Positions 1-64,000 of a stretch of 64,000 nt of DNA are shown piece by piece (within the stretch, counting starts at the first letter, position 1; every line of letters begins with the position of its first letter). The notes under the pieces were generated by a model. That model worked only from the letters and a program-made list of their open reading frames with translations, was not told the origin of the DNA and made no database searches. The position numbers and the translations under genes were made by a program. The DNA comes from Eledone cirrhosa (taxonomy: Eukaryota), in the NCBI GenBank assembly GCA_964016885.1, contig OZ024754.1, positions 27,838,001 to 27,902,000 of the forward strand, written 5' to 3'.

Positions 1-76
1 ACAAAGTGGTATTGGAAATCGAACTTCCGAACTTATGATTGTGAATCAAGCGCTCTAACCACTAAGCTACGTGCTT
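1..76 (-). mobile_element. tRNA-derived SINE head (truncated by window edge)
   Basis: Reverse complement reads ...gtagcttagtggttagagcg...ggaagttcgatttcc (Pol III A and B boxes); resembles the SINE head at 33184. Confidence 0.6.
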
Positions 77-2130: not shown

Positions 2131-3645
2131 TTAGAGTAGATGTGTGGAGCTTTCTTCAAAGTTCGTTTCTAAAGGTCCTGCTATGTTTAGCTGTGTTGCG
2201 GTTCTATTAGGGTTGATGTAAGAAATCTTCTCAGTATAACCAGCGTTTATAAGTGCGGAGTCATAGTATTCCGCGTGCTGCTTGAAGATGTTTTCGTTGG
2301 CCGACAGTGTGGACACTCTGTTGGAGACACTTTTAACTATAGAGTTAATTATGCTCTTAGGGTGGTTGGAGTGTCTATTGACGTATCTAAAATTTTCATT
2401 AGGTTTGTGGTATAGGCCTGAGTCTAATTCTAGGGTGACGTCTGAGAAGTTAACTGTCCTATTGTTGGGTTCAATTTCTACTGCTAAACCTTGGGTCTTA
2501 AAGATGTACCTAAGTCGTTTGTGTATTCTATTCAGTTGGCTGTTATTGAGTCCACGGGTCATTAGTAGGGCATCATCCCGGTATAAGCCACCTCCCAAGT
2601 AGGGGATCTCGTCCGTTAATATGTTTAGGAGGTATATGCTCCTACATCTGTAACCTGTGCCGAGTCAGTCGATTCCATGGTGATGTCGAAGCTATCTGGT
2701 CTATTCTGTCGTTCCCAAAGTCTACCGTCGAATTCTAGTAAAGTTTTCCTAGCTGTTATTATTATGTCTACTTCTCTTCTAGTGAGGCTTGATCTGTTCA
2801 TGGCTGAGATCAGTGCCTTGTTAAGGATGATTGGGGATATACATGCGTAGTAGTTCGTAATGTCCAATTGGACTAATCGAACATTCGACTTAGTTTCAAT
2901 GGCACAAAACCAGTCTATTACCTCCTTTGTACAAGACCATAGGCTGAGTTTAGTTCTAATCTTAAATTCAGGTAATATTCGGTCAATGATTGATTTGCTA
3001 AGTCTACCAAGGTCCGATTTGGCGGGGGCTATGAGCCTGACCGGTAGTTTTGACTGGAAGTCCGGTTTATGGTCTTTAATGGATATTCTCGGTGTCCTAG
3101 AGTTGTAAGGAAAGGTCCTGTCGTCAATACTCAGTTCGGTCGTTATTGATTTCGCCTGTTTATTTGTGTGCTATGTTTTCTCGTGTTGATGTTTTGTATA
3201 TTTTAGAGATTTCGTTTGTGATGCATTTGTTGTAGGTTTTGTACTCTAAGTTATATAGGTTTCCAGTTTTATCCGCTGGTACAATAATCCCAGTGCTATT
3301 CTTGATCCTTTTTAAGGTAGAGGCGAGTCCGGACAGGAATGCACTTCTGTCAGGGTTTCGCGGTGGTTTCCTGAATCTAATTTTCCGGATCATGGTAATG
3401 ATCCTGCTCTCAAATTCCTCAAGGAGTGGGTTGTGCGGTGGGTTTTTCGTTGATTTGAAAAGTCTTTTTATGTGGTTGGTGGGATTGTTAATTGATCCAG
3501 GGGCCCTCCTGTTGTTGTAGTGGTAGGCCCTCCAACGGATCCTTCTGATGAAATTGTTTGTCTGCCTTAGTAATAGGTCCATGTAGACATCTTCCGAAGG
3601 CAAAGGAATGTCCTTTAGGGAGGAAGTGTTGTAGAACAGTTCCAT
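2131..3645 (-). pseudogene. Penelope-like reverse transcriptase, frameshifted
   Basis: SLKDIPLPS...FIRRIRWRA N-terminus, PADKTGNLY, KDHK, LDITNYY, FDITMESTDSAQVTD, GLYRDD, YHKPN...HSNHPKSII; spread over several frames. Confidence 0.9.
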
Positions 3646-5044
3646 GGTGTTCCGTGTAAGCGCTCGACAAATAAAGGAGCTAAATATCCAGTGGGTGTAA
3701 ATAGGAGTTACTGCAGGTTCACCCGGGTGAGCACTCGATGTTTAGGTTCACTTCTGTGATGATGTGTAGAGCTATACAGAGTGTAAAATATAGAAAGGAT
3801 ACCCCCACCCCCCGTCTGCCTACCAAATAACACACCGTAACCTCTGATCATGTAATCATCTTGCCGCACATATCACCCCAGTACCACCACCATCACCATG
3901 TCCACAACACACATCGCCGTACGTCCATAAACGCTTTTCCCCCGCGTTCCCTATGTCACCTTTTAACCGGTATTCGATCCGGTATATATATTTTTGTCCC
4001 TCACAACTCCACCACCACCACCACCACAAAACACAACTCCATACTTCATCAACACCGACAAAACATACCTCCACTCCCCAACCAACAATAGTGTGTGTGT
4101 CTGTGTGTAAGTATTTTACTCATACGGGCGTTTTAAGTGTGCGTGCGTGTACGCAAATTTATCTCAATGTGTGTGTGTGTATGTGAACACATGTGTATGC
4201 ATATGTCTATGTGTGTGTATATATATATGTATATATATATCTGTATATATATGTATGTGTGTGTGTATGCGTATGTGTATGTGTGTGTATATATGTATGT
4301 GTATGTATGTGTGTGTATATATGTATGTGTATGTATGTGTGTGTATGTGTACGTCTGCATATATGTATATGGGTAAATCTGACTGTATGTGTAGGTGAGC
4401 TCATATATGTGCGTGTATGTGTATATGTGCGTGTATGTGTGTGTTGTCGGTACATGTGTGTGTATGTATATATATATGTGTATATATATATATGTGTGAG
4501 TATACGTATGTGCGAGTGTGTATGTGTATATCTTGCATACATGAGTGTGAGTCCATGTGCCCATACCCATGTGTATGTATGTGTATGTATATATGTAAAA
4601 CACGCTCTACGTCGCCTCTCACCTTCCCCCCATCTCTGTCGTTCGCCACCCCCACCGATACTTCCCCACTCTCCATATTCGTGTCCGCATGCATATACAT
4701 GTGTGTACATATACATATGGCTGTGTGTGAGCGTATGCCGATATGTGTGGGCAAGGATGTGCGTATGTGTTTTATGTTGTGTGTGTTTATACAACAATAT
4801 ATGTGCACATATATACATATATGTGTGTACGTATACGTATATGCAAGGTATCTGTCAGACGAAGAGCGTCTAACTATGTATCTATGTAAGGACCTGACGC
4901 CACCAATACATCCACCACACCACCACAAACGCCGCTACCATAGACAAAGGCACCACTACCACACCCCCACCCACACGCCAACCCGTCTACTGACAATCTA
5001 CTAACCTCATACCACAGCCCATCCCACTCTAAATAACCTACTGA

Positions 5045-5362
5045 CTAGCCTCTGTGTCACGTGATTGATTCTTTAGAATCGGCCATATGATCAGTGGCAG
5101 TGAGAATTTTCAGTAGCTAGAATCCAGTCCTCGATAGCTGTTCCATTTACCGAATTATTATTATTTTTATATGAGTCGCCAGTGTCCGCGCATCGCCTGG
5201 AGACTCGGCTGAGAATGACCTCCCTGATGACGCAATGAAATTCTCAACGGTTCGTTACGTAACTGTCTTTATCCCATTGCAGAAACTAATTAGTTGGGGT
5301 GAAAATTTAAGTAAGTTAATTTTAAAAAAAATTTTTTTTTTTTTTAATTTTCTTATTTTACG

Positions 5363-5370
<8 letters not shown>
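5045..5370 (+). mobile_element. Diverged non-coding HHR element related to the 26.3-27.6 kb unit
   Basis: Shares gtcacgtgattgattctt, ccagtgtcc...cctgg...gctgagaat and a 3' end ttttcttattttacgtct(TA)n with 26815-27620. Confidence 0.75.
5220..5299 (+). ncRNA. Type I hammerhead (family C)
   Basis: cucc-CUGAUGA-c-gcaaug...cauugc-a-GAAAC-UAAUUA-GUU^-gggg. Confidence 0.8.
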
Positions 5371-5394
<24 letters not shown>

Positions 5395-5395
<1 letters not shown>

Positions 5396-5582
5396 ACGAA
5401 GGAAATGTGGTAAGGAACCAGGTGGACCATAACGCACCAAAGTACTCAATACTTGAGGTAGTAGAGTGGGTAATAGGAACCAGTAAGACCCCGACAGCTG
5501 AGCTCAAGCCGTTTCGACGGCTAATTCATTCAGAATTAGCTGTCGAAACGGCTTGAGCTCAGCTGTCGGGGTCTTACTGGTT

Positions 5583-5587
<5 letters not shown>
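5395..5587. mobile_element. Fold-back 3'-end fragment of PLE family B
   Basis: Reverse complement of 52545-52680; arms 5473-5527 and 5533-5587; flanked by (TA)n on both sides. Confidence 0.8.
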
Positions 5588-5641
<54 letters not shown>

Positions 5642-8392: not shown

Positions 8393-8554
8393 CTTGACTC
8401 TGTTTTCCTGCGTTTTTCATCGAAAACATTTTGAATACATCTTCTCTTTTCATGATATTTGGATTACATTGAGTTCTTCATACGGATTGGACACTACCGT
8501 ATATTTTGATAGATGTATCTCTCTCTCTCTATATATATATATATAAATATATAT

Positions 8555-8692
8555 AACGAAGGAAGTGTGGTAAGGAACCAGGTGGACCATAACGCACCAG
8601 AGTACTCAATACTTAGGGTAGTAGAGTGGGTTTAAGTAAAATGTTCAAGACCCCGACGGCAAAGTTCAAGCAGTTTCGACGGCTATTTCTGG
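8555..8692 (-). mobile_element. 3'-end fragment of PLE family B
   Basis: aacgaagga.gtgtggtaaggaacc...gtttcgacggctatttctgg between TA tracts. Confidence 0.8.
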
Positions 8693-9795: not shown

Positions 9796-10440
9796 TTAGC
9801 TGTATACTTTATGGAAAGTTCTGTGGAATTTATGCAAGCAGATAGAAAACAAGTCAGTGCGTCTATTTATTATAGAATCTAAATTAGATATAATGGTAAA
9901 TTTTTCATTTAGACAGAGATTGCAAGTCTTGGATAGAGAACTGTTCAAGTATGAGGACGCAGAAGAAACCTTTTTCCAAGAGATGTTATATTTAATATTT
10001 TTGTCTTTCAAGGACCATATGAGTTCTGAGAGAGCCGTATTGGTTCTTTTAAGCTGGTATTTAAAAGACGAATGATGATTATAAAGACGAGCTTTAAAGG
10101 AGGTGGAAGTGGAGCCAAAATAGGTGATGGAATTGGTGTCACTTATAACTTTACATTCGTAGATTAAGTTTTTATCAAGACAATGGTTGTTGAGAGGACA
10201 TTTATTTTTAGCAGGGCAATTGCAATTGCGATTAGAGAGATTATTAACGAGTGACCTAGTGTTATCTATAGAAGGAATTGGATTGGAGAAGTTATTTGCG
10301 ATAGGAATAATAGTTTCTTGATTTAGAATGGGATTAAGAACATTTAGTGAAGTTGTGTTTGACGTTGTATTTGGGTTTGCAGAAATTAGCCTAGAGTTTA
10401 CAATGACGTCGGGAGTACTATTACTATTATTATGATATTG
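9796..10440 (-). pseudogene. PLE linker plus Zn-knuckle and GIY-YIG endonuclease C-terminal fragment
   Basis: CNCPAKNKCPLNNHC...LIYECKV...YFGSTSTSFKARLYNHHSSF...LIWSLKD...CNLCLNEK...CLHK. Confidence 0.85.
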
Positions 10441-11498
10441 AACAGTTCTCTATCCAAGACTTGCAATCTCTGTCTAAATGAAAAATTTACCATTATATCT
10501 AATTTAGATTCTATAATAAATAGACGCACTGACTTGTTTTCTATCTGCTTGCATAAATTCCACAGAACTTTTCATAAAGTATACAGCTAATATCCTAAAC
10601 TTTATCAATTCAGAATCCTTTTCTCAAAGGCACATATATATATATATATACTTCTTTAAAATATACCCATCTTTCTACCTTATTTCAAAGTTATTTATTA
10701 TACATTATATAATACTTGTTACTCATTCTATATCACTCCTATTTATCACTTCCCTTTCTTCCTTTTCCTTTTCTTTTCTTTTTCTTTTAATTTCTAACCC
10801 CTAATCTGTACCTTTTCTCACTGTGCCTAACATAGAAACAATTATTACACAGTACAATATATTCTTACTTTATATCACCTTGAAAAAATCCTTCGTAAAC
10901 ATAAACATTTTTTTTTGACGTTAGATTAATCATCCTCTATTCATTATTTTTTTTTAAATTTCATCTAACTTATTCATGCTCATCTCACAATATATCCTTA
11001 CTTATACATTACTTTTGTTTTTTAAATAATACATATCAACATTTTCTTTCCATCGCACATATTATTAAACCCTTAAATATTATTCTTAATACATATTAAC
11101 AATTTCTTTTCATCGCACATATTATTAAACCCTTCAATATACAAACCTTAACTTTACATTATTTTTCTCTTCGTTAATTTTCAAATTCTTTTAATTTATA
11201 CATTATCTTCCAACGGTTTTTCAACCTCTCTATGTAAAACAATATATTTTTCTCAGTTATAAAAGCTAGCTATCTCTCTCTATCATCCATCTCTCCTCCT
11301 ATCTCATCCTTCCTCATTATACTCCTCCCCCTCCACTTTTTACTCTCATCTCCTCCTCTTTTTCATCCTTTCCAACCTCCCCCCCCCCTCAAAAAAATGT
11401 TTTCCCCAATATCACACATCAATCTAAAACTACTTTTCATATGTTGATTTAAAACTGCACTATCCACAAGTGTTTTTAACCTTCATATCTTGTTTTCC

Positions 11499-13602: not shown

Positions 13603-13953
13603 TACTATAGTTTCGGTTTTAAGGTTTTTACTGTTCATTCCTATGCATATTGGGTGGGACCTATATATATATATATATATGAAAAAGTATGACCCCGACG
13701 GCAGAGCTCAAGCCGTTTCGACGGCTATTTCTGGACTGAGTCCAGAAATAGCCGTCGAAACGGCTTGAGCTCTGCCGTCGGGGTCATACTTTTTCCTATT
13801 TCCCACTCTACTACCCTAAGTATTGAGTACTCTGGTGCGTTATGGTCCATTTGGTTCCTTACCACAATTCCTTTGTTATATATATATATATAGGTCCCAC
13901 CCACTATGCACAGGAATAAACAGTAAAAACCTTAACACCGAAACTATAGTAAT
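13603..13953. repeat. Nested palindromes: outer inverted repeat enclosing a family B fold-back
   Basis: 13603-13662 inverted at 13891-13953; inner arms 13681-13737 and 13739-13795 perfect; TA tracts between layers. Confidence 0.85.
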
Positions 13954-16889: not shown

Positions 16890-18321
16890 CTCCGTAATTA
16901 AGTGGTTTAACGCCTTCAAATCCCAAAAAGCGAAGTTCACACAGTTTGACATTGTTGATTTTTACCCGTCGATCTCAGAGACCCTGTTAAACTAAGCGTT
17001 GGACTTTGCTATCACTTATACTACCGTCTATGGTTTAGACAGGGAAATCATCGCTCACTGCCAGAAAACCCTCCTCTTGAACAACGGAGTAGCCTGGGCA
17101 AAGAAGACAACTTCAGACCTGTTCGACGTCTCCATGGGTACGTTTGACAGTGCTGACGTATACGACTTGGTTGGCCTATTTATTTTAGACATATTACGTG
17201 TTAGATTCCCGGTCTTCCACACCAGAATATACCGCGACGATGGATTGACCTTATCATGCCATAAAAGTGGTCTCGACCTTGATCGGTTTAAAAAAGATTT
17301 AGCTTCTACTTTCATTGAGTTAGGACTTAGGATAACAGTAGCTACCAACCTCTCTAGCGTAGATTTCTTAGACATTAATTTAGACCTTTGCACACACACC
17401 TACAGACCCTTCCATAAGCTTAACGAAAAACTCAATTACATTCACAAGGACTCATTCCCCCCACCCCACCCCAGCACCCGCAGTTTTTAGAAACTTCGTA
17501 AATAATATCAGTACTAGAATCTCAAACCTCTTCTCTAATAAGGCTATCTTTGACAGAGCGGCACCCTATTATAACACGGCGTTAGCTAACAGCGGTTTCT
17601 CGCAACCTATCACTTACTCTCCCACTAACAACAACAGCAATAAGAAAACAAAGCGTAACAATAGACAAACTATCTGCTTCTCTCCTCCCTTCTCACTCAA
17701 CGTTAAAACCAATGTAGGCAAACAATGTCTAGCTCTCTTAGATAGACACTTTCCCATAGGTCATAAATACCGCTACATCTTTAACCGACACAAAGTAAAA
17801 CTAGGATACTCCTGCGCTAAGAACATGAAGGTCCACATCACCAACAGCCCTAAGAGCAACACCCCACCAGGGTGCTCTTGCCGTAAGCCCGAAGCTTGTC
17901 CCCTTCAACAGCAATGCAACACATCCGCCGTAGTTTATGAAGCTGTGGTCACTTCCAACCGATCAAATCAACCACAGGAGGTCAAATCCTATGTGGGTAT
18001 GGCGGGGGCCGATTTAAGGAACGTTTCCTGAACCACCAGTCGACCTTTAGATACTCGGACAGACGTTCATCCACGAAACTCGTGAGCCATGTATGCTCCC
18101 TCAAGGACTCAAGTATAGACTACTCCATTCAATGGAAAGCCATCATTAAGTCCAAGCCATACGCAAGGAGCAATCCGTCGTGTGGACTATGTATTTATGA
18201 GCGAATAAATATTCTAAAGAGATTACGCAATAGCGATTGCCTAAATTTAAGAAATGAATTCTTCACACGTTGTCCACACGTCTGGAAATATCTCTTACAT
18301 AACTACAAAGCTCCGAATTGA
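16890..18321 (+). pseudogene. PLE RT and GIY-YIG endonuclease, frameshifted
   Basis: FDIVDFYPSI, FDVSMGTFDSADVYDLVG, IYRDDGL, CSCRKPEACPL...VVYEAVV...SYVG, CGLCIYE...CPH. Confidence 0.9.
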
Positions 18322-25417: not shown

Positions 25418-26466
25418 TAAATATCAAGTGCATGTTGGTGTGTATGTATGGGAGTATGGTTGCAGTCATTGTGAGAGATGCCTTCATTTATGCAAGTTGC
25501 CAGTGTCAAGCTGTATCCATGTCTCAATACCTCAGTATTCCAATACATTAATAATGAGATCGATATAACGATAATCTGGCAAACCTACAAAACCTGTTTG
25601 TGAACAAAATATTCAAATCATTGCATTGAACATTATGTAATATACTTATAATAACACTATATGTATTAAGACATATAAACATAGGAGCAATAATGTAAAT
25701 ATATACTCAATACATACACACAAACACCCACATAATTCCCCCTTCGACACACAAGCAGAGAGACACACACTATATATGTGTGTGTGTGTGTGTTATCTGT
25801 GGGGGTGGAGATATAACCCGTTCTAACGTGCTCTGGCAATGTCATTCGGTAGAAAATGCCATATCATACTATTATTTTCAGTTATTTATTTATTTTTTTT
25901 GTGTTAACAGTTTCCATGAAACTTAAGGCCATGAGCGGTAATTTGATAACAGCAGCCATAACTTCATAAATATTTCTGTTCATTATATACATTGAGTGCA
26001 CATATTTTGTTCTTCGAAACATAGTCGTTCCCAACTCAACTTCTGACAGAAACTTCATAATACAGACTTTCGATATCACTTCTCGCTGCACCCACCTCGG
26101 CACCAATCCTGCAATGCCGGACTGCTTGTCAGACTGCTTGCCTGCCCTTCTCACCCATCCTGATTATTTCTTCTTTTTCTCAAACTTTAAATCTCTTTTT
26201 TCCCTAACTTTTTTACTCTTTTGTGGTGAAGTACCAACGTCCCCTACGTTGAGACATTCCTTTTCAAACAAGCATGAAATTAAGTATATATATAAAGAAT
26301 TAGTATATCTAGTAACATATATATACACACAGATGCATACTTATGCTAGCAAATATATAGGTTTTGTCTTAGTAACTTTGTGGTTCAATGCATGGGGTTG
26401 CAGAACAATAATATGAGAGACGTAAAATAAGAAAATGATAAAATTAACTTACTTACTAAAATTTCA

Positions 26467-26547
26467 CTCCCAACTAATTAGTTTCTGAAAGGGAATAAAC
26501 ATACTTTCCGAAGAAGTGTACAGAGAAGCCTTTCGTCATCAGGGGAG
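26467..26547 (-). ncRNA. Type I hammerhead (family C)
   Basis: cuccc-CUGAUGA-c-gaaagg...ccuuuc-a-GAAAC-UAAUUA-GUU^-gggag. Confidence 0.85.
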
Positions 26548-26979
26548 TCTATTCTCAGCTAAGTTTCCAGGCAATACGTGGACACTGGGAACTCATACAA
26601 AAATAATTCAGTGGATAGAAAAAAGCAAAGCGTGGACTAAATTCCTAGCCATTGAGAAAATCACTGCCATCTGTGTGTATATATATGTTACTAGATATAC
26701 TAATTCTTTATAATTATCTCCAAATTATTTGTCGAGTAAAATTGGCCAAGACTGCTGCTATGGTAACAGTCAGGCTGCTGTCTTCTTAACAAACCAATTT
26801 CCATGATTGACCTCGATGTCACGTGATTGATTCTTTTGAATTTGCCACCGACGCAGTAGGCAATGATTTTCTCAATGACTAGGAATTTAGTCGACGCTTT
26901 GCTTTTTTCTATCCACTGAATTAGTTTTGTATAAGTTCCCAGTGTCCACGTATTGCCTGGAAACTTAGCTGAGAATAGA

Positions 26980-27060
26980 CTTTCCTGATGACGAAAGGCT
27001 TCTCTGTACACTTCTTCGGAAAGTATGTTTATTCCCTTTCAGAAACTAATTAGTTGGGAG
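26980..27060 (+). ncRNA. Type I hammerhead (family C)
   Basis: Same fold; stem I cuuuc/gggag retained through G-U wobbles. Confidence 0.85.
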
Positions 27061-27490
27061 TGAAATTTTAGTAAGTAAGTTAATTTTATAATTTTCTTAT
27101 TTTACGTCTCTCATATTATTGTTCTGCAACCCCATGCATTGAACCACAAAGTTACTAAGACAAAACCTATATATTTGCTAGCATAAGTATCCATATGTTA
27201 CTAGATATACTAATTCTTTATAATTATCTCCAAATTATTTGTCGAGCAAAATTGGCCAAGACTGCTGCTATGGTAACAGTCAGGCTGCTGTCTTCTTAAC
27301 AAACCACTTTCCACTGATTGACCTCGATGTCACGTGATTGATTCTTTTGAATTTGCCACCGACGCAGTAGGTAGTGATTTTCTCAATGGCTAGGAATTTA
27401 GTCAACGCTTTGCTTTTTTCTATCCACTGAATTATTTTTGTATAAGTTCCCAGTGTCCACGTATTGCCTGGAAACTTAGCTGAGAATAAA

Positions 27491-27571
27491 CTTCCCTGAT
27501 GACGAAAGGCTTCTCTGTACACTTCTTCGGAAAGTATGTTTATTCCCTTTCAGAAACTAATTAGTTGGGAG
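27491..27571 (+). ncRNA. Type I hammerhead (family C)
   Basis: Same fold; stem I cuucc/gggag. Confidence 0.85.
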
Positions 27572-27637
27572 TGAAATTTTAGTAAGTTAACTTTATAATT
27601 TTCTTATTTTACGTCTCTCATATATATATATATATAT

Positions 27638-27712
<75 letters not shown>

Positions 27713-27850
27713 AAATAAGATTTCGCTTCAAGCATAGGTTTTTACAATATGTATAGAAATTTCGTATTTCTAAAGAAATACGGTTTTAGGAAGGAAGCCG
27801 TAGCTATGCAAACACAGGGGCTAACGCCCTGCTTCCATATATATATATAT

Positions 27851-28013
27851 AACGAAGGAAAAGTGGTAAGGAACCAGATGGACCATACCGCACCAAAGTA
27901 CTCAATACTTAGGGTAGTAGAGTGGGTAATAGGAACGAGTAGGACCCCGACGGCTGAGCTCAAGCCGTTTCGACGGCTTGAGCTCAGCCGTCGGGGTCCT
28001 ACTCGTTCCTATT
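27851..28013. mobile_element. Fold-back 3'-end fragment of PLE family B
   Basis: Perfect arms 27928-27968 and 27973-28013, loop ttcg. Confidence 0.85.
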
Positions 28014-28052
28014 TATATATATATATATTATTTATTAAAATAACAGATTAAA

Positions 28053-48027: not shown

Positions 48028-49686
48028 ATGCCGTGAATTATTTTGTTTAATTCCTGGACCCAATTTTTACATATATTTTTTATATTTCAGAGCTAAATAT
48101 TATCATGTTTAACAAAACCGTGTTACTTTTATATTTATTTAAATTCCAATTATCTCAATCGCATTTTTATTATTTGTATTATTTTATTTTATTTTAAATT
48201 TCTTCGCTTCTGTTTCCCTATTTTTTCTGATTTATGTTGTTTTTTAATCGGTATTAATTACTCGGAGGTTTCAACACTGACATTTGCTTTGTGTTTTGTT
48301 CTTTCTTATCTTGAATTAAAAAGTTTTAATTCCTCTTTCACAAATGTTCGCTTTCTTTCTGTTTAACTACTAATTTCCCCTCATATATTTTTCCTTTTAC
48401 TTTGTTCTTTTTCTCTCCTATTGCGATGATTCTCTCAATCTACCTTATTGAAATGGTTTCTTTCTCTTATATTCGCTTAATTTATGACCGCAGAGTCGAT
48501 GGCTTTATTGGCTTTTAACATTAAAAAGAATATTTATATTCGTTTATTTTTGTTCGAATTGGCAGTTTCATTAGTTTAGAGATTCTCAGAGATTCTCAGG
48601 TCGTATTCTTTCCTTTACAATACCAACTTTCCTCAATTCCTTTCAAATTTGAATTATAATTTGTTTACCTGAACACCATGTTAACATGAACAAACTTTTG
48701 AAACCATTTGATGACTTTTTTTTACCAACAGCTTTGCAAAAACGATGGAAGATGTGTGTATATACCTCATTTGGTCACTTACCATGAGAGTATCATGTTC
48801 AACCTATGAACTTTTCAGCCGACACAAGTATATATATATATATATATACGGGGGAGGGTGTATATGTGCACCTCTGGGTGTGTATGCTTTGGTTTTGTGT
48901 ATACATCTTATATCTTTATACGTACATGTGTGCGTTAGTTGGTGTACATGTGTTTTCCATATTTACAGTTAGTAAGAATCATACAGGCAGACAGGCAGAC
49001 ACACAGACAGACAAGTATTATCAAAAATACCACCTGGTGTGCTTTGGTTGATTTCGCGCTTTCGTTTATCTTTTTTATGTGAATAAAGCACACCATTTCA
49101 ATGACATATCAAAGAACACAGTATGGGTTTGATAACAATCGGATTCATATCGATTTGGAAATATCATTCACGAAGAAATAGCTTTGTGAGACATGCTTTC
49201 GAAATACAGATATCGATATATAAACTGATAAACTTTAACTTCTAACCAATCATATTGATTTCTATTCGACAGTATATTCGTATAGTGATTTTTCTCGCAA
49301 AGAAGTAAATCAGATACTCATTCTCTTTAGAGATATATAGAAAGGTATTAAAAAAATAAAATGATGCTTGCATGACTGTATATATAAGGAGTTCTCTTCG
49401 CAACCTAATGGTTGGCATTTCAGTTTCATTGCCCACCCCGTAGGAATGTGTTTACTATAGTAAACACATTCCCACGGGGTGACCACGAGTTGACCAATGC
49501 TTCGTGAACAGAATCTGTATGGCAGAAACTGCATATATTTGTTATATATATATATAAACAGGCAGACACACCCACATATATATATATGTGTGTTTATATA
49601 TGTGTATTTATGTATATGTATGTATATATATATACGGGGTCCTACTCGTTCCTATATATATATATATATATATAGGAACGAGTAGG

Positions 49687-49782
49687 ACCCCGACGGCTGA
49701 GCTCAAGCCGTTTCGACGGCTAATTCTGGACTAAATGAACATTTTTATCCTGGTATATGAATAGCCGAGCTTCTCAGGGGGT
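49687..49782 (-). ncRNA. Variant-core hammerhead (family B)
   Basis: Mirror copy of 52492-52587. Confidence 0.75.
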
Positions 49783-50892
49783 AATTCCATATATGGTAAA
49801 AGTGATTGTCACAAGGATTGGTCAAAAGTTTGTTGTTGAGACACATAATTCTATCATAGCAATTTGTGGAAGGAAGGGGTAGCTGAACCTGCCAGTAGAA
49901 GAAAGAGGGAGAGGGGTGGAGGAAACCCAGTCGTGCGTTGATAGTGCCAACTACAGCAGGGCAGGAGGTCAAGCAAGTATACTAGGGAGGAGGAGGGGGG
50001 TCGAAACAATAAGTAAAACAAAATGGGGGTAAATATATAGAAGAATACCGAGAATGTTAAAAGTATTAAAATAAAATAATAATAAAAAATAAAAAAAATA
50101 AAAACAATTTCTGGTTACTATTCCCTAACGACAGTCATCAAGTCTCTCACTGGTACTGCTAAACTATAGAAAAGTTTACTAGGTGGGACGGAATTATAAT
50201 GAGACCATTTTAAGAGTTAGTAGTAATCAACCGAGTATATCTTACGGTGACAGATCAACAAGTGGGGGGCCAAAATACTAAAGAAACTACCACGAAATAA
50301 TAATTCAGAGTCCCGAGACTAATACGAAATAATTGTTTCTACCCTAGGCACAAGGCCAGCAACCACCCAGTGCAAAAAATAAACTAATACGAAATAATAA
50401 TTCAGAATCCCGAAAATGAATACTAATAGTATCTCTAAGGGTGCGGCTACGATACAAAAATTCTAGTGCAAACTACATAAATGCTCGTACGAAGTATATG
50501 AAAAATTTGATACGGAAATTAATTCAGAATCCCCCCCCCCCCCAAAAAAAATACTGATATAAGAGAAATTAAAGCAAAGATACCACTAAGAAATGTAGAA
50601 AGCACGGAAATGGAGCAGCCATCGGATAAGAAAGCAAGTATCCGAGGTCTATCACATCTGCTATAAAAAACGGAGTCGGCCAATTCTATCATAGAATAGG
50701 GGATGGGGGTGGGGGTACTGAGGCTACAAAGGACCGAGGGGCTGCCTCGGGTGGGCGAGAAAGTGAAAAGGACGACGACAAAGAAGGAGGACTGGGGTGG
50801 AAGGACTAGGAAGGGATGGGGGGAAGAAGGAAATATAGAGGAAGCAATAAAAAGATATAAAAACTCAACCACTATGGAAGAAATAACCTAAA

Positions 50893-51368
50893 TAGCAGTG
50901 GAGAGCCGACCAGGAGGTGCAACTGTCCTGATGGATCCATTTTCCCCCTCGACAACAGATGCAGAGATCGTAATGTGATCGACCAGTGCAACGTGAGGAC
51001 GGACACCTCCAACAAAGCTTATATAGGATTAACCGCATGTGACTTCAAGACCCGGTATACCAACACAGACATACCTTCCGAAACCCGGCCCGGCCTCACG
51101 CCACCACACTTTCGGGCCACATCTGGGACCTCAAGGATAACAATATTACCTATGATCTCACTTGGAGCTTACTGTCCAGAGCCAACTCTTACACGGGAGG
51201 ACGCCGTCCGTGCAATTTATGCTCGGAAGAAACTTTACAAATGCTGTTTTCGACGGACCAACTTCTAAACAAGAAAGACGAACTGGTAACTGCATGCAAA
51301 CACAGATTGCGTAGGACTTACCTCGCCCTCAAACCCCATAATGACCCGGGGGATAGACAAGGGCTGTA
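50893..51368 (+). pseudogene. PLE GIY-YIG endonuclease fragment, frameshifted
   Basis: CNCPDG..FPLDNRC...AYIGLTACDFKTRYTN / LSGHIWDLKD...CNLCSEE...LLNKKDELVTACKH. Confidence 0.85.
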
Positions 51369-52491: not shown

Positions 52492-52587
52492 ACCCCCTGA
52501 GAAGCTCGGTTATTCATATACCAGGATAAAAATGTTCATTTAATCCAGAATTAGCCGTCGAAACGGCTTGAGCTCAGCCGTCGGGGT
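52492..52587 (+). ncRNA. Variant-core hammerhead (family B)
   Basis: acccc-CUGAGAA-g..cgguuauuc...gaauuagccg.c-GAAA-CGGCU ugagcuc AGCCG-UC^-ggggu. Confidence 0.75.
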
Positions 52588-52678
52588 CCTACTCGTTCCT
52601 ATTACCCACTCTACTACCCTAAATATTGAGTACTTTGGTGCGTTATGGTCCACTTGGTTCCTTACCACATTTCCTTCG

Positions 52679-52763
<85 letters not shown>

Positions 52764-58166: not shown

Positions 58167-58214
<48 letters not shown>

Positions 58215-58216
<2 letters not shown>

Positions 58217-58307
58217 GGAAAAAGTATGACCCCGACGGCAGAGCTCAAGCCGTTTCGACGGCTATTTCTGGACTAAATTAGAATTTTTAGCCTGGTAAAT
58301 AAATAGC

Positions 58308-62183: not shown

Positions 62184-64000
62184 CCTGGGTATAACATTAA
62201 ACTACATCCAGTGGCAAGGCTCCAGTTCGGGAGTTCAGGAGATGTGGGGAATGTGGAGTTACCCCTTAGTTGTCATGACTCCCAGGTCTGCCCTGGCCCG
62301 GGGTGGTAGTACCTGTTAGGGCTCCATTTATGGGTTAAATAACTACCTTATTCGAGTGGCGCGGGTAAGGTATTGTCAGGCATTGAAAAGAAATATGGAG
62401 AGTCGATCTAACAGCATTAGGGTTAGAGCCCCTAATTACACTGTCAAGGAGCAGCCTGGTCGTTATGACTCTGCTGGCTTAGAGCCACAGAGAGGGCCAG
62501 TGGATGATGGATCAGCTGTCTCTGAGACAAATATAAAGAATGCAGTTTTGCCCTGCAGAAGAGCCATCAAAATGGGCACTTTCAATGTGAGGACTATTCG
62601 GACGCTGGAGAAGAGAGAGGAGTTGGGACATCTGTTCGAGGAGAGTGGTATACAGATACTTGCGATCCAAGAACACAGGATTCTACACGATGAGCCCGTG
62701 AGGAGTGTGATGATCGGGAAGAAGAGCCAGCTCATCACTACATCGGCAGTGAAGAACACAACAAATGCTGCAGTAGGAGGAGTGGGTTTTGTGTTCAGTG
62801 CAAAAACCAATCTGTTGGTGAGGGAAATAATGCCTATCTCCCCGCGAGTGTTGAGGGTGACCTTCAATGGAAACCCAAGACTGACAGTCATCTCAGCCTA
62901 TAGTCCAACCGAGGGGGACAGTGATGTGAATGCGGAACAGTTCCATGAGGAGGTGTGTAGAGCTGTCAACACCACTCAGGCACACAATATCCTGCTTGTT
63001 TTGGGGGACTTCAATGCACATCTGAGTAAGGAGGGCAGTGAAGATCCTTGCTGGTACTTCCATAACAACACCAACCGAAATGGAAGACTACTGAGAGACA
63101 CCCTGCTGGAGGCGAACTTGATGGCGACCAACCTAGGGTTTAGGAAGAATCTGGGGAAGATGTGGACCTACATCTCAGATATGCACCTATCCAAGTCCCA
63201 GATTGATTTCATTCTGGTGAGGAAAAAGTGGCGGAATAGTGTTCTGAACACAGAACCATACAGCTATTTCAGTACACTGGGTAGTGACCACCGGCTTGTT
63301 ATGAGTGAGGTCCGCGTGAGCTTAAGAAAGAGCAAGGCTCAGCCCCGGAGAACAATCTATGACTGGGGAGCTTTCAAGGAAGATGATAAGCTACAGGAGA
63401 GGTTCACAGTGGAAGTGAGAAACAGGTTTAGTGCTCTGTGTGGAGAGTCAGAGGAGAGAGAGATTGGATGGACTGAGGAGAGTGGGACGAGGAGGTACGG
63501 GCACTTCACCAATGCAGTGGCGGAAGCAAGTGAAACCCTGGTGCCGAGGAAAAAGAACAAAGGGAAGCACAAAAGTGTGTGCAGCCAGAGAACACCTGAA
63601 AGCTGCCAGGGACCAATTCTATGCTGATCCTACGGAGGAGAGGGTGGAGACTGTGGAGGTGATGAGGGAAGAGCTCTGTACCGCTTACACTGAGGTCAGA
63701 GAGGAGGCACCGATAGAGAAGATCAGAAGTGTGGAGAGAGCGGTTGACAGATCTGGATGTAAGGAGAGCTGGATGATCATCAACGAGATCACAGGGAGGA
63801 AGAGAAGGTGTTCGAGTCAGATCCAGGGAACGGGGCCCGAGGATAGGAAGAGGAAATGGCTAGACCATTTTAGGACCCTACTAGGAGAGCCACCCTCCAC
63901 AGCCCAGAGCACTTGGGAGATCAGGCGGCTGTTTGAGGAACTGGATGTTGAGACAGAGCCCTTCACCAGAGAGGAGCTTCCGAGAGCCAAGAAGAGGATC
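62181..64000 (+). mobile_element. RTE-clade LINE, 5' part (continues beyond window)
   Basis: Begins right after (TA)n; short 5' UTR; single ORF starting with APE. Confidence 0.85.
62356..63627 (+). CDS. LINE apurinic-like endonuclease domain (ORF frameshifted near 63570; likely ATG at 62395)
   Basis: GTFNVRT, LAIQEHR, GGVGF, VISAYSPT, LGDFNAH, NRNGRLL, SQIDFILV, SDHRLV. Confidence 0.9.
   Translation: MARVRYCQALKRNMESRSNSIRVRAPNYTVKEQPGRYDSAGLEPQRGPVDDGSAVSETNIKNAVLPCRRAIKMGTFNVRTIRTLEKREELGHLFEESGIQILAIQEHRILHDEPVRSVMIGKKSQLITTSAVKNTTNAAVGGVGFVFSAKTNLLVREIMPISPRVLRVTFNGNPRLTVISAYSPTEGDSDVNAEQFHEEVCRAVNTTQAHNILLVLGDFNAHLSKEGSEDPCWYFHNNTNRNGRLLRDTLLEANLMATNLGFRKNLGKMWTYISDMHLSKSQIDFILVRKKWRNSVLNTEPYSYFSTLGSDHRLVMSEVRVSLRKSKAQPRRTIYDWGAFKEDDKLQERFTVEVRNRFSALCGESEEREIGWTEESGTRRYGHFTNAVAEASETLVPRKKNKGKHKSVCSQRTPESCQGPILC

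What the first reader, a model, noticed from the sequence alone, without database searches (positions are those of the whole stretch)
5220..5299. Stem II covariation in HHR family C supports a selected RNA structure
Seen: at 5220 stem II is gcaaug/cauugc; at 26467, 26980 and 27491 it is gaaagg/ccuuuc. The core and the palindromic stem III (ACUAAUUAGU) are unchanged, and stem I changes are C-to-U, keeping G-U pairs. A C-A juxtaposition at the base of stem II and a GUU triplet are conserved but atypical.
Basis: seen in the sequence. Interest (0 to 1): 0.7.

Follow-up and report, generated by a model that had tools for sequence, protein, structure and literature searches.

The report
Long-armed hammerhead in animal jumping repeats
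More than ten thousand copies of a short non-coding repeat in this animal genome carry a hammerhead-type RNA motif whose second helix has repeatedly changed both partners of a base pair together, so the fold was very likely kept by selection; it likely cuts itself to release the repeat's RNA for jumping and may use an extra knot-like pairing, but neither has been tested.

Summary
The four window copies belong to a family of at least 10,668 type I hammerheads in a 489-571 nt non-coding unit that forms partial tandems with an inverted 5' copy, often ending in (TA)n: a non-LTR retrozyme, or non-autonomous Penelope-type element. Stem II pair 2 takes all four Watson-Crick forms; pair 5 swaps U-A/G-C. 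On a tree of 147 insertions, 7 of 8 lineage changes keep pairing, against 2 of 16 tip changes. Both pairs beat a phylogenetic null on 178 insertions; an earlier unanchored all-pairs test found nothing. The C bulge and GUU are published features; the fixed extra A before GAAA is rare. New leads: a possible GAGAA/UUCUC pseudoknot (one compensatory event, not significant, with an equally supported rival helix), further covarying helices in the unit, and an internal complement of the stem I 3' strand. No RNA data; no autonomous partner found. The scan noted pseudoknotted Penelope hammerheads in other genomes, but not this family. Verdict: new variant of a known kind.

The parts
5040..5367 (+). 5'-truncated single copy of the non-coding unit (GCAAUG subfamily), ending at (TA)14 (5368-5395)
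   Evidence: blastn to the second array, about 72% identity; TRF; near-identical genome-wide copies
5211..5216 (+). GAGAA(U) upstream of stem I: 5' strand of the candidate pseudoknot; can alternatively pair with the U-rich tract after stem I
5220..5223 (+). stem I 5' strand (pairs with 5296-5299)
   Evidence: sequence; fold
5224..5231 (+). core CUGAUGA plus the unpaired base between 9 and 10.1 (C; A in a subfamily of about 300 copies; position 7 is C in 1,522 copies)
   Evidence: consensus in PMC4209133 supplement
5232..5280 (+). long stem II arm: 6-bp basal helix (5232-5237 with 5275-5280), pyrimidine-rich internal loop holding UUCUC (5241-5245), apical hairpin (5247-5266)
5281..5295 (+). extra A (5281), GAAA (5282-5285), palindromic helix III ACUAAUUAGU (5285-5294), GUU triplet; predicted cut after 5295
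26285..27625 (.). one insertion array (left end approximate): inverted 5' copy (to 26676) joined to a partial tandem, TA-rich at the left end and (TA)n at the right end
26472..26542 (-). hammerhead core of the inverted copy (GAAAGG subfamily)
26985..27055 (+). hammerhead core, first tandem copy; predicted cut after 27055
27056..27566 (+). one full unit, cut site to cut site (511 nt), non-coding, with further covarying helices
27305..27312 (+). internal complement of the unit's 5' end (the stem I 3' strand); candidate off-switch
27496..27566 (+). hammerhead core, last tandem copy (GAGAA at 27482-27486, UUCUC at 27511-27515); predicted cut after 27566

Best explanation
This is a type I hammerhead motif, present in at least 10,668 copies in a non-coding tandem-forming repeat of about 500-570 nt, whose stem II pairing was very likely maintained by selection on the RNA of the actively jumping lineages, and which likely self-cleaves after GUU to cut unit-length RNAs that are predicted to be copied back into (TA)n sites by a Penelope-type reverse transcriptase. 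Shown: the core, the copy number, the array layout, the subfamily ladder, and stem II covariation confined to lineage branches. Inferred: cleavage (about 0.75). Helix III forms either as a weak hairpin or, more stably, as a 10-bp duplex between two tandem copies (dimer use about 0.55). The unit-length RNA is circularised and primed internally at UA-rich sites about 50-80 or 170-200 nt past the cut site, which would give longer-than-unit arrays (about 0.55). Stems I and II are tied by a 5-7 bp pseudoknot between GAGAA upstream of stem I and UUCUC in the stem II internal loop (about 0.4). An internal complement of the stem I 3' strand would switch the ribozyme off in the monomer or circle (about 0.4).
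For: Stem II haplotypes sort into clades on trees built from flank alone. Lineage changes keep pairing in 7 of 8 cases, tip changes in 2 of 16 (p=7e-4); on 152 insertions the counts are 8 of 9 (one is a rooting artefact) and 3 of 16 (p=0.002). Tree-based null with named pairs: pair 2 E=0.003 and pair 5 E<0.001 on 125 insertions; both exceed every null value on 178 insertions. A predicted intermediate subfamily (pair 5 swapped, pair 2 not yet) turned up in a later search. Positions that hammerheads leave free vary between subfamilies (N7, the 9/10.1 base). All 8 units tested fold better on the sense strand (z -2.8 to -8.9, 12 shuffles each) than antisense (-0.8 to -4.2), and 20 of 137 consensus pairs show double changes. 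Array layout matches published Penelope-type insertions (passages). Of 160 last copies that reach (TA)6, 70 end 50-79 nt and 75 end 170-199 nt past the cut site, not at it. Palindrome self-duplex -9.0 kcal/mol.
Against: No cleavage or RNA evidence exists for this family. An unanchored all-pairs test found no pair at E<0.05 (stem II pairs E=6.8 and 22.8 on 147 insertions; E above 50 on 74 whole units), and all-pairs E was 4.9 and 0.2, so significance depends on alignment and sample. The null is my own R-scape-like script, not R-scape. Helix III never varies between lineages (0 double changes), so it has no covariation support. The monomer's lowest-energy fold is not the hammerhead in any of 15 copies folded (0.8-5.5 kcal/mol gap). 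The core carries an extra A before G12 in every copy tested (0 without it), which could slow cleavage. No autonomous partner was found in the flanks of 335 array strands; one junction to a GIY-YIG ORF (L032) is a single case. The pseudoknot rests on one lineage event and is not significant (E=0.06, 0.19; lineage versus tip p=0.16).
Confidence: 0.76

Rival explanations
1. The fold is selected, but not for cutting: it is a degenerate hammerhead kept as a binding or folding signal for the reverse transcriptase or a host protein.
For: Fixed extra A in the core; the hammerhead is not the lowest-energy monomer fold; Penelope-type hammerheads cleave poorly in vitro and the authors do not rule out other roles (PMC4209133); array 3' ends do not sit at the cut site.
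Against: Catalytic positions are the same in all subfamilies found while the free positions N7 and 9/10.1 vary, though my patterns required the core; G10.1-C11.1 is kept in 176 of 178 insertions; a published row carries the same extra A.
Confidence: 0.12
2. The paired changes come from templated mutation in DNA or cDNA hairpins (quasi-palindrome correction), not from selection on RNA.
For: Several swaps are double transversions with few sampled single-sided intermediates; the element is full of inverted repeats and template switches.
Against: 0 of 16 tip changes were double although every insertion passed through reverse transcription; G-U pairs and internal loops persist; folding is stronger on the sense strand in 8 of 8 units. 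The G-U versus A-C count favours the sense strand only modestly (706:100 against 464:118).
Confidence: 0.06
3. The covariation is shared ancestry: a few subfamily founders happened to differ at complementary positions.
For: Ladder-like tree with few events; many non-pairing column pairs outrank the stem pairs in the unanchored test.
Against: Six separate lineage events at two pairs, all four Watson-Crick forms at pair 2, on branches with 0-11% flank change per site; significant for pairs fixed in advance by the core motifs.
Confidence: 0.04
4. Sub-rival to the pseudoknot only: GAGAAU pairs with the U-rich tract after stem I (an extended stem I), or with a U tract further upstream, and UUCUC is conserved for another reason.
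For: One double change of its own (U-A to A-U, p=0.0065, E=0.12), as strong as the pseudoknot's; this helix appears in most nested folds; a third partner appears in the whole-unit consensus fold. Counter-cases to the pseudoknot: 4 A-C and 2 C-U insertions at pair 3.
Against: Paired in 82% of cells (helix incl. two stem I pairs) against 97.5% for the pseudoknot (24 copies); weak in the GCAAUG subfamily (-2.4 against -7.6 kcal/mol); does not explain the loop C-to-U that follows the upstream G-to-A (156 G-C, 31 A-U, 4 G-U, 4 A-C, 8 other, 14 without anchor, of 217 insertions); five insertions with G at position 6 gain a G-C pair with the loop and lose this pair (where a sixth has a mismatch at pair 3). 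The two helices could partly coexist or alternate.
Confidence: 0.35

Closest known systems
Metazoan non-LTR retrozymes (Cervera and de la Pena 2020, PMC7229834; Li, Clavereau and Pollet 2026, bioRxiv 10.64898/2026.07.22.740005)
   Same: Non-coding tandem units, each with a type I hammerhead; low GC; strongly self-paired; thousands of copies; unit size inside the 51-972 bp range of the 2026 preprint.
   Different: Larger than the 170-400 nt circles of the 2020 paper; hammerhead with a 40-50 nt stem II arm instead of a short hairpin; circular RNA not shown; the species sets that I read did not include this family (no 'octopus' or 'cephalopod' in the 2020 text, no 'octopus' or 'mollus' in the 2026 text).
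Hammerheads of Penelope-like elements with small palindromic helix III (Cervera and de la Pena 2014, PMC4209133)
   Same: Consensus CUGANGA-H, G10.1-C11.1, long helix II, palindromic helix III, GUU in many rows, predicted dimer cleavage; partial tandem plus inverted 5' copy (Craig et al. 2021).
   Different: No RT-endonuclease ORF between copies; internal loop and apical hairpin on stem II; 10-nt palindrome; extra A before GAAA, seen in only 1 of 56 rows of their alignment (by row order the Cotesia row, read from PDF text); candidate base-paired tertiary contact, whereas these motifs are described as lacking helix III or the usual loop contacts.
Pseudoknotted hammerheads (Perreault et al. 2011, PMC3088659)
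   Same: A 4-6 bp helix that ties stems I and II and was needed for fast cleavage; found in all three types.
   Different: Here the partner would be an internal loop of stem II with the 5' flank of stem I in an animal repeat; the contact is not established.
Type-SGC (non-circularly permuted) hammerheads (Eckert et al. 2023, PMC10085705)
   Same: Hammerhead core; a helix between stems I and II.
   Different: Block order here is the ordinary type I (CUGA block, GAAA block, cut site), so this is not that class.

Membership tests
Type I hammerhead ribozyme | CUGANGA, GAAA and NUH in type I order with three helices | tested here: met
Type I hammerhead ribozyme | Stem II with G10.1-C11.1, supported by covariation | tested here: met
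   176 of 178 insertions; pairs 2 and 5 significant; not in the unanchored test
Type I hammerhead ribozyme | G12 directly after C11.1 (strict consensus) | tested here: not met
   extra A in all copies; 0 exact matches without it; one published precedent among 56 rows. Filed as a variant for this reason.
Type I hammerhead ribozyme | Match to an Rfam hammerhead model at gathering score | tested here: not met
   no hit in the window; no E-value search was run
Type I hammerhead ribozyme | Site-specific self-cleavage | not testable with these tools
   no assay; no RNA run listed
Penelope-type hammerhead | Unpaired base between 9 and 10.1; long helix II; palindromic helix III | tested here: met
   helix III is complementary but invariant
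Penelope-type hammerhead | Sits in pseudo-LTRs flanking an RT/GIY-YIG ORF | tested here: inconclusive
   no recurrent ORF junction in flanks of 335 array strands, mostly 1.5 kb or less each side; one junction in L032
Non-LTR retrozyme | Head-to-tail units, each with a type I hammerhead | tested here: met
   74 distinct cut-to-cut units of 489-571 nt; arrays
Non-LTR retrozyme | No protein coding | tested here: met
   no frame of 120 aa or more inside the window's unit; long frames in 120 loci belong to neighbours or run in from them
Non-LTR retrozyme | Highly self-paired unit RNA | tested here: met
   sense z -2.8 to -8.9 in 8 of 8 units; 20 of 137 consensus pairs with double changes
Non-LTR retrozyme | Accumulates as circular RNA | not testable with these tools
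   no RNA holder listed
Pseudoknotted hammerhead | Base-paired helix between stems I and II with covariation | tested here: inconclusive
   97.5% cells paired; one lineage event; E=0.06 and 0.19; rival helix equally supported
Type-SGC hammerhead | Cut-site block first, then GAAA block, then CUGA block | tested here: not met
   order is CUGA, GAAA, cut site

The most novel reading that the evidence does not exclude
An animal retrozyme hammerhead that restores fast cleavage with a Watson-Crick pseudoknot between the 5' flank of stem I and an internal loop of a long stem II, and that is gated by a co-evolving internal anti-stem-I strand so that it cuts during transcription of tandems and is locked in the released circle; its ladder of more than ten thousand young copies would be a natural, step-by-step record of compensatory evolution of a ribozyme and its off-switch.
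Probability: 0.25. Interest if true: 0.68.

Novelty: new variant of a known kind. Interest (0 to 1): 0.45.

Why it matters
The role of hammerheads in Penelope-type elements and animal retrozymes is still open: they cut poorly in vitro and in vivo function is inferred. This family gives sequence evidence that the fold is under purifying selection in the jumping lineages and neutral after insertion, with natural compensatory variants that serve as ready-made rescue controls. If the pseudoknot and the internal off-switch hold, they would explain how such a ribozyme can be fast yet leave a stable circular template. The class itself is known, so this refines rather than overturns.

Tried and rejected
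No RNA holder listed for window 26930-27620; two contig runs of one sample, kind not on record, cover the unit in fragments and add nothing on expression. Search for other helix III palindromes: 0; 38 single changes at the first loop base, all scattered over known subfamilies. Search for independent pseudoknot swaps outside the G subfamilies: 68 copies changed at upstream position 3, of which by eye only one or two also changed the loop partner, so these are tip mutations and give no second event; two further copies fetched on the loop sequence had a C-U mismatch (L313, L314). Unanchored all-pairs covariation: nothing at E<0.05. First register tried for the extended stem I was wrong (corrected). 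The first flank tree was spoiled by truncated copies and replaced. Idea that the 4-nt TAAG loss marks the last copy of an array: rejected (7 of 53 internal, 20 of 160 last copies, p=1.0). Pairing of the 3' side of the internal loop with downstream sequence: considered by eye, not supported by the UCUAC variant, not computed. Kink-turn at the AG/GA step of stem I: considered from memory, bulge length does not fit. Autonomous partner: not found. Same family as the scrambled hammerheads noted elsewhere in this genome: no match by sequence and different block order. Lunse et al. 2017 on Penelope hammerhead variants is not held, so I cannot say whether it describes this variant. Supplement file 1 of PMC4209133 was not searchable, and bioRxiv supplements are closed.

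Full report
1. Observation. The window holds four copies of the motif, with CUGAUGA at 5224(+), 26542(-), 26985(+) and 27496(+). The three copies near 27 kb are one insertion: an inverted 5' copy joined to a partial tandem with a 511-nt period. The window therefore offers two haplotypes. Rfam finds no hammerhead at gathering score.

2. The family. The genome (G000, 3.0 Gb; my guess of an octopus is from recalled features and untested) has 9,146 exact matches to the core pattern with U7 (reversed control 0) and 1,522 with C7 (control 0): at least 10,668 copies. About 300 have a purine, nearly always A, in place of the C bulge (313 matches). Copies are young: 38 have a change at the first helix III loop base. 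No copy lacks the extra A and none has a compensated change at the outer palindrome pair. From 222 loci I took 74 distinct units from cut site to cut site, 489-571 nt, with pairwise identity down to 68%. Arrays are partial tandems, often with an inverted 5' copy. Of 160 last copies that run into (TA)6, 70 end 50-79 nt and 75 end 170-199 nt after the predicted cut site. This layout matches Penelope-type insertions as described by Craig et al. 2021 (PMC8557442, passages).

3. Is stem II covariation more than ancestry? Subfamilies show GCAAUG/CAUUGC, GUAAUG/CAUUAC, GUAAGG/CCUUAC, GAAAGG/CCUUUC, GAAAUG/CAUUUC, GGAAUG/CAUUCC and GGGAUG/CAUUCC. They sort into clades on trees made from the upstream flank alone. 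I kept one copy per insertion with an intact 200-nt flank (147 of 314 copies). On branches leading to two or more insertions, 7 of 8 stem II changes keep pairing and 6 change both sides; on tips, 2 of 16 keep pairing and none is double (Fisher p=7e-4 and 2e-4). A repeat with 152 insertions gave 8 of 9 (one a rooting artefact) against 3 of 16 (p=0.002). My R-scape-like null (substitutions re-dealt along the tree) gave mixed results that depend on alignment. With plain MAFFT columns and all pairs tested, nothing reached E<0.05; the two stem pairs ranked 5th and 9th with E=6.8 and 22.8 on 147 insertions, and had E above 50 on whole units. With columns anchored on the motifs and 11 named pairs, E was 0.003 and below 0.001 (125 insertions; all-pairs E 4.9 and 0.2). 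On 178 insertions (430 copies less 146 with broken flanks, 67 second copies, 37 picked for a mutation, 2 with deletions) both pairs exceeded every null value. Stem II is fixed in advance by the core motifs, so the named-pair test is fair. On 24 chosen copies stem II is paired in 99.3% of cells. I conclude that selection acted on the RNA of the source lineages and stopped after insertion.

4. The 'atypical' features. Cervera and de la Pena 2014 (PMC4209133; I read parts 1-2 of 4 of the text and part 2 of 3 of supplement file 2) list an unpaired base between 9 and 10.1, a conserved G10.1-C11.1 pair, a long helix II and a palindromic helix III as typical of Penelope-type hammerheads, and many of their rows end in GUU. 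So the C is the known bulge. The extra A before GAAA is the rare feature; one of 56 rows in their alignment has it (by row order the Cotesia row; mapping read from PDF text). Lunse et al. 2017 may describe more such variants but is not held; I saw only its citation in a review (PMC6765202, passages). A search for an insertion at C11.1/G12 returned one unrelated listing.

5. Beyond the finding: a candidate pseudoknot. Stem II continues into a pyrimidine-rich internal loop and a variable apical hairpin (3 of 4 apical pairs show double changes). UUCUC in that loop changes once on lineage branches, while the bases on either side change 8 and 5 times. It is complementary to GAGAA just 5' of stem I. 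Pair 3 is G-C in 156, A-U in 31, G-U in 4, A-C in 4 and other in 8 of 217 insertions, 14 lacking the anchor (the sample was enriched for the A-U clade by my choice of loci). The A-U state was first seen in the GGAAAA subfamily and then, as predicted, in the C7 subfamily found later, but all belong to one clade (18 tips, support 0.98), with L300 and L323 probably at its base. Five insertions with G at position 6 gain a sixth, G-C pair. Against this: only one double event; E=0.06 and 0.19; 68 copies mutated at the upstream base in other subfamilies were almost all uncompensated; and GAGAAU can instead extend stem I, a helix with its own single double change (E=0.12) though less well kept (82% against 97.5% of cells) and weak in the GCAAUG subfamily. 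Base-paired contacts between stems I and II are known and were needed for fast cleavage in tested cases (Perreault et al. 2011, PMC3088659, passages). A review describes Penelope-type motifs as lacking helix III or the usual loop contacts (PMC7761336, passages). My searches for a pseudoknot in animal retrozyme or Penelope hammerheads (listings only) showed no paper that describes this one. I put it at about 0.4.

6. The whole unit is a structured RNA. The consensus fold of 40 representative units has 137 pairs, 20 with double changes, including hairpins near unit positions 115-165 and 400-450. All 8 units tested fold better than shuffles on the sense strand, less so antisense (12 shuffles each). 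These pairs come from a fold fitted to the same alignment and did not pass the all-pairs null. The unit's 5' end, which is the 3' strand of stem I, has an internal complement about 250 nt downstream that follows its variants (GGAGUG with CA(C/U)UCC; GGAAGUG and GGGAGUG with C(A/G)CUUUCC) and is predicted more stable than stem I in 28 of the 30 classes printed. That would lock the ribozyme in a released monomer or circle. This is inference.

7. Mechanism. Read-through transcription of a tandem array would give two hammerheads; the weak helix III is predicted to form as a 10-bp duplex between them (-9.0 kcal/mol), as proposed for Penelope-type and amphibian hammerheads. Cuts after GUU would release a unit-length RNA. 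Because array 3' ends fall at two internal UA-rich sites and arrays run to several units, a circular or multimeric template primed on (TA)n fits better than a linear monomer. The enzyme would come from an autonomous Penelope-type element. I did not find it: flanks of 335 array strands show no recurrent junction to an ORF. One copy is joined without a microsatellite to a truncated GIY-YIG frame (L032), which is a single weak hint. Cleavage, circles and the partner are untested.

8. Comparison and novelty. The element works like, and meets the sequence-level tests for, a metazoan non-LTR retrozyme (PMC7229834: passages and section 14; bioRxiv 10.64898/2026.07.22.740005: parts 1-2 of 5 and a term search, which argues these are non-autonomous Penelope derivatives). 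Its hammerhead is a Penelope-type variant that departs from the strict consensus by one inserted A and has a long stem II arm. Notes on other genomes describe pseudoknotted Penelope hammerheads; I did not check them and do not count them as support. Searches joining hammerhead or retrozyme with octopus or cephalopod gave no description of this family.

9. Verdict. Observation confirmed; interpretation supported and strengthened; class known; variant features new as far as I could search. Interest 0.45.

Noticed in passing
window 8192(+), 40997(-); 8895(-), 11507(+); 18902(+), 19280(-), 19452(+), 58627(+); 39541(+), 56321(-), 56674(+); 42132(-), 42702(-); 11687(+), 16690(-), 28514(+), 59894(+): Several other repeated CUGANGA-bearing motifs, unrelated in sequence to this family. 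Some may be minimal or rearranged hammerheads of other Penelope-type families; their folds were not tested.
   Followed up: partly
window 2131-3741(-), 9796-10449(-), 16996-18321(+), 50861-51268(+): Broken Penelope-type reading frames (YRDD, DKT and RWR-like motifs; GIY-YIG-like C-termini by eye). DKT and RWK mark the Hydra clade in Craig et al.. No Pfam hit at E 0.01 for the six pieces scanned; no tree made.
   Followed up: partly
window 5381-5603, 8530-8689, 13664-13892, 27837-28025, 49635-49728, 52548-52707, 58204-58281: A second short repeat with a long internal inverted repeat, also in (TA)n, lying beside both hammerhead insertions.
   Followed up: no
window 5311-5316 and 27070-27079; all subfamilies: A GUAAGU motif, a recalled 5' splice-site consensus, about 15-25 nt after the predicted cut site, usually doubled; one TAAG is lost in 31 of 241 copies regardless of position in the array. 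An intron, as in some Penelope elements, was not tested.
   Followed up: partly
window 5246 and 27516 (base after UUCUC): This base takes all four letters within single subfamilies and even within arrays, far more than its neighbours: a possible reverse-transcription error hot spot.
   Followed up: no
window 27526-27531; L092, L064 and others: The apical hairpin of several subfamilies is capped by C-UUCG-G, a recalled stable tetraloop; others use different loops, and one subfamily has a short apical hairpin and a bulged stem II.
   Followed up: partly
L032 minus strand, junction about 1290 nt from its 5' end: A 5'-truncated unit is joined without microsatellite to a truncated frame with a CxxxxCxxC linker and a GIY-YIG domain (Pfam E=3.7e-5): chance insertion or a template switch to a partner's RNA.
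   Followed up: partly
window 62320-63627(+): 435-aa frame with an AP-type endonuclease domain of a LINE-like element (Pfam PF14529).
   Followed up: no
window 14-69(-): Marginal tRNA-like match (29.2 bits), probably the head of a SINE.
   Followed up: no
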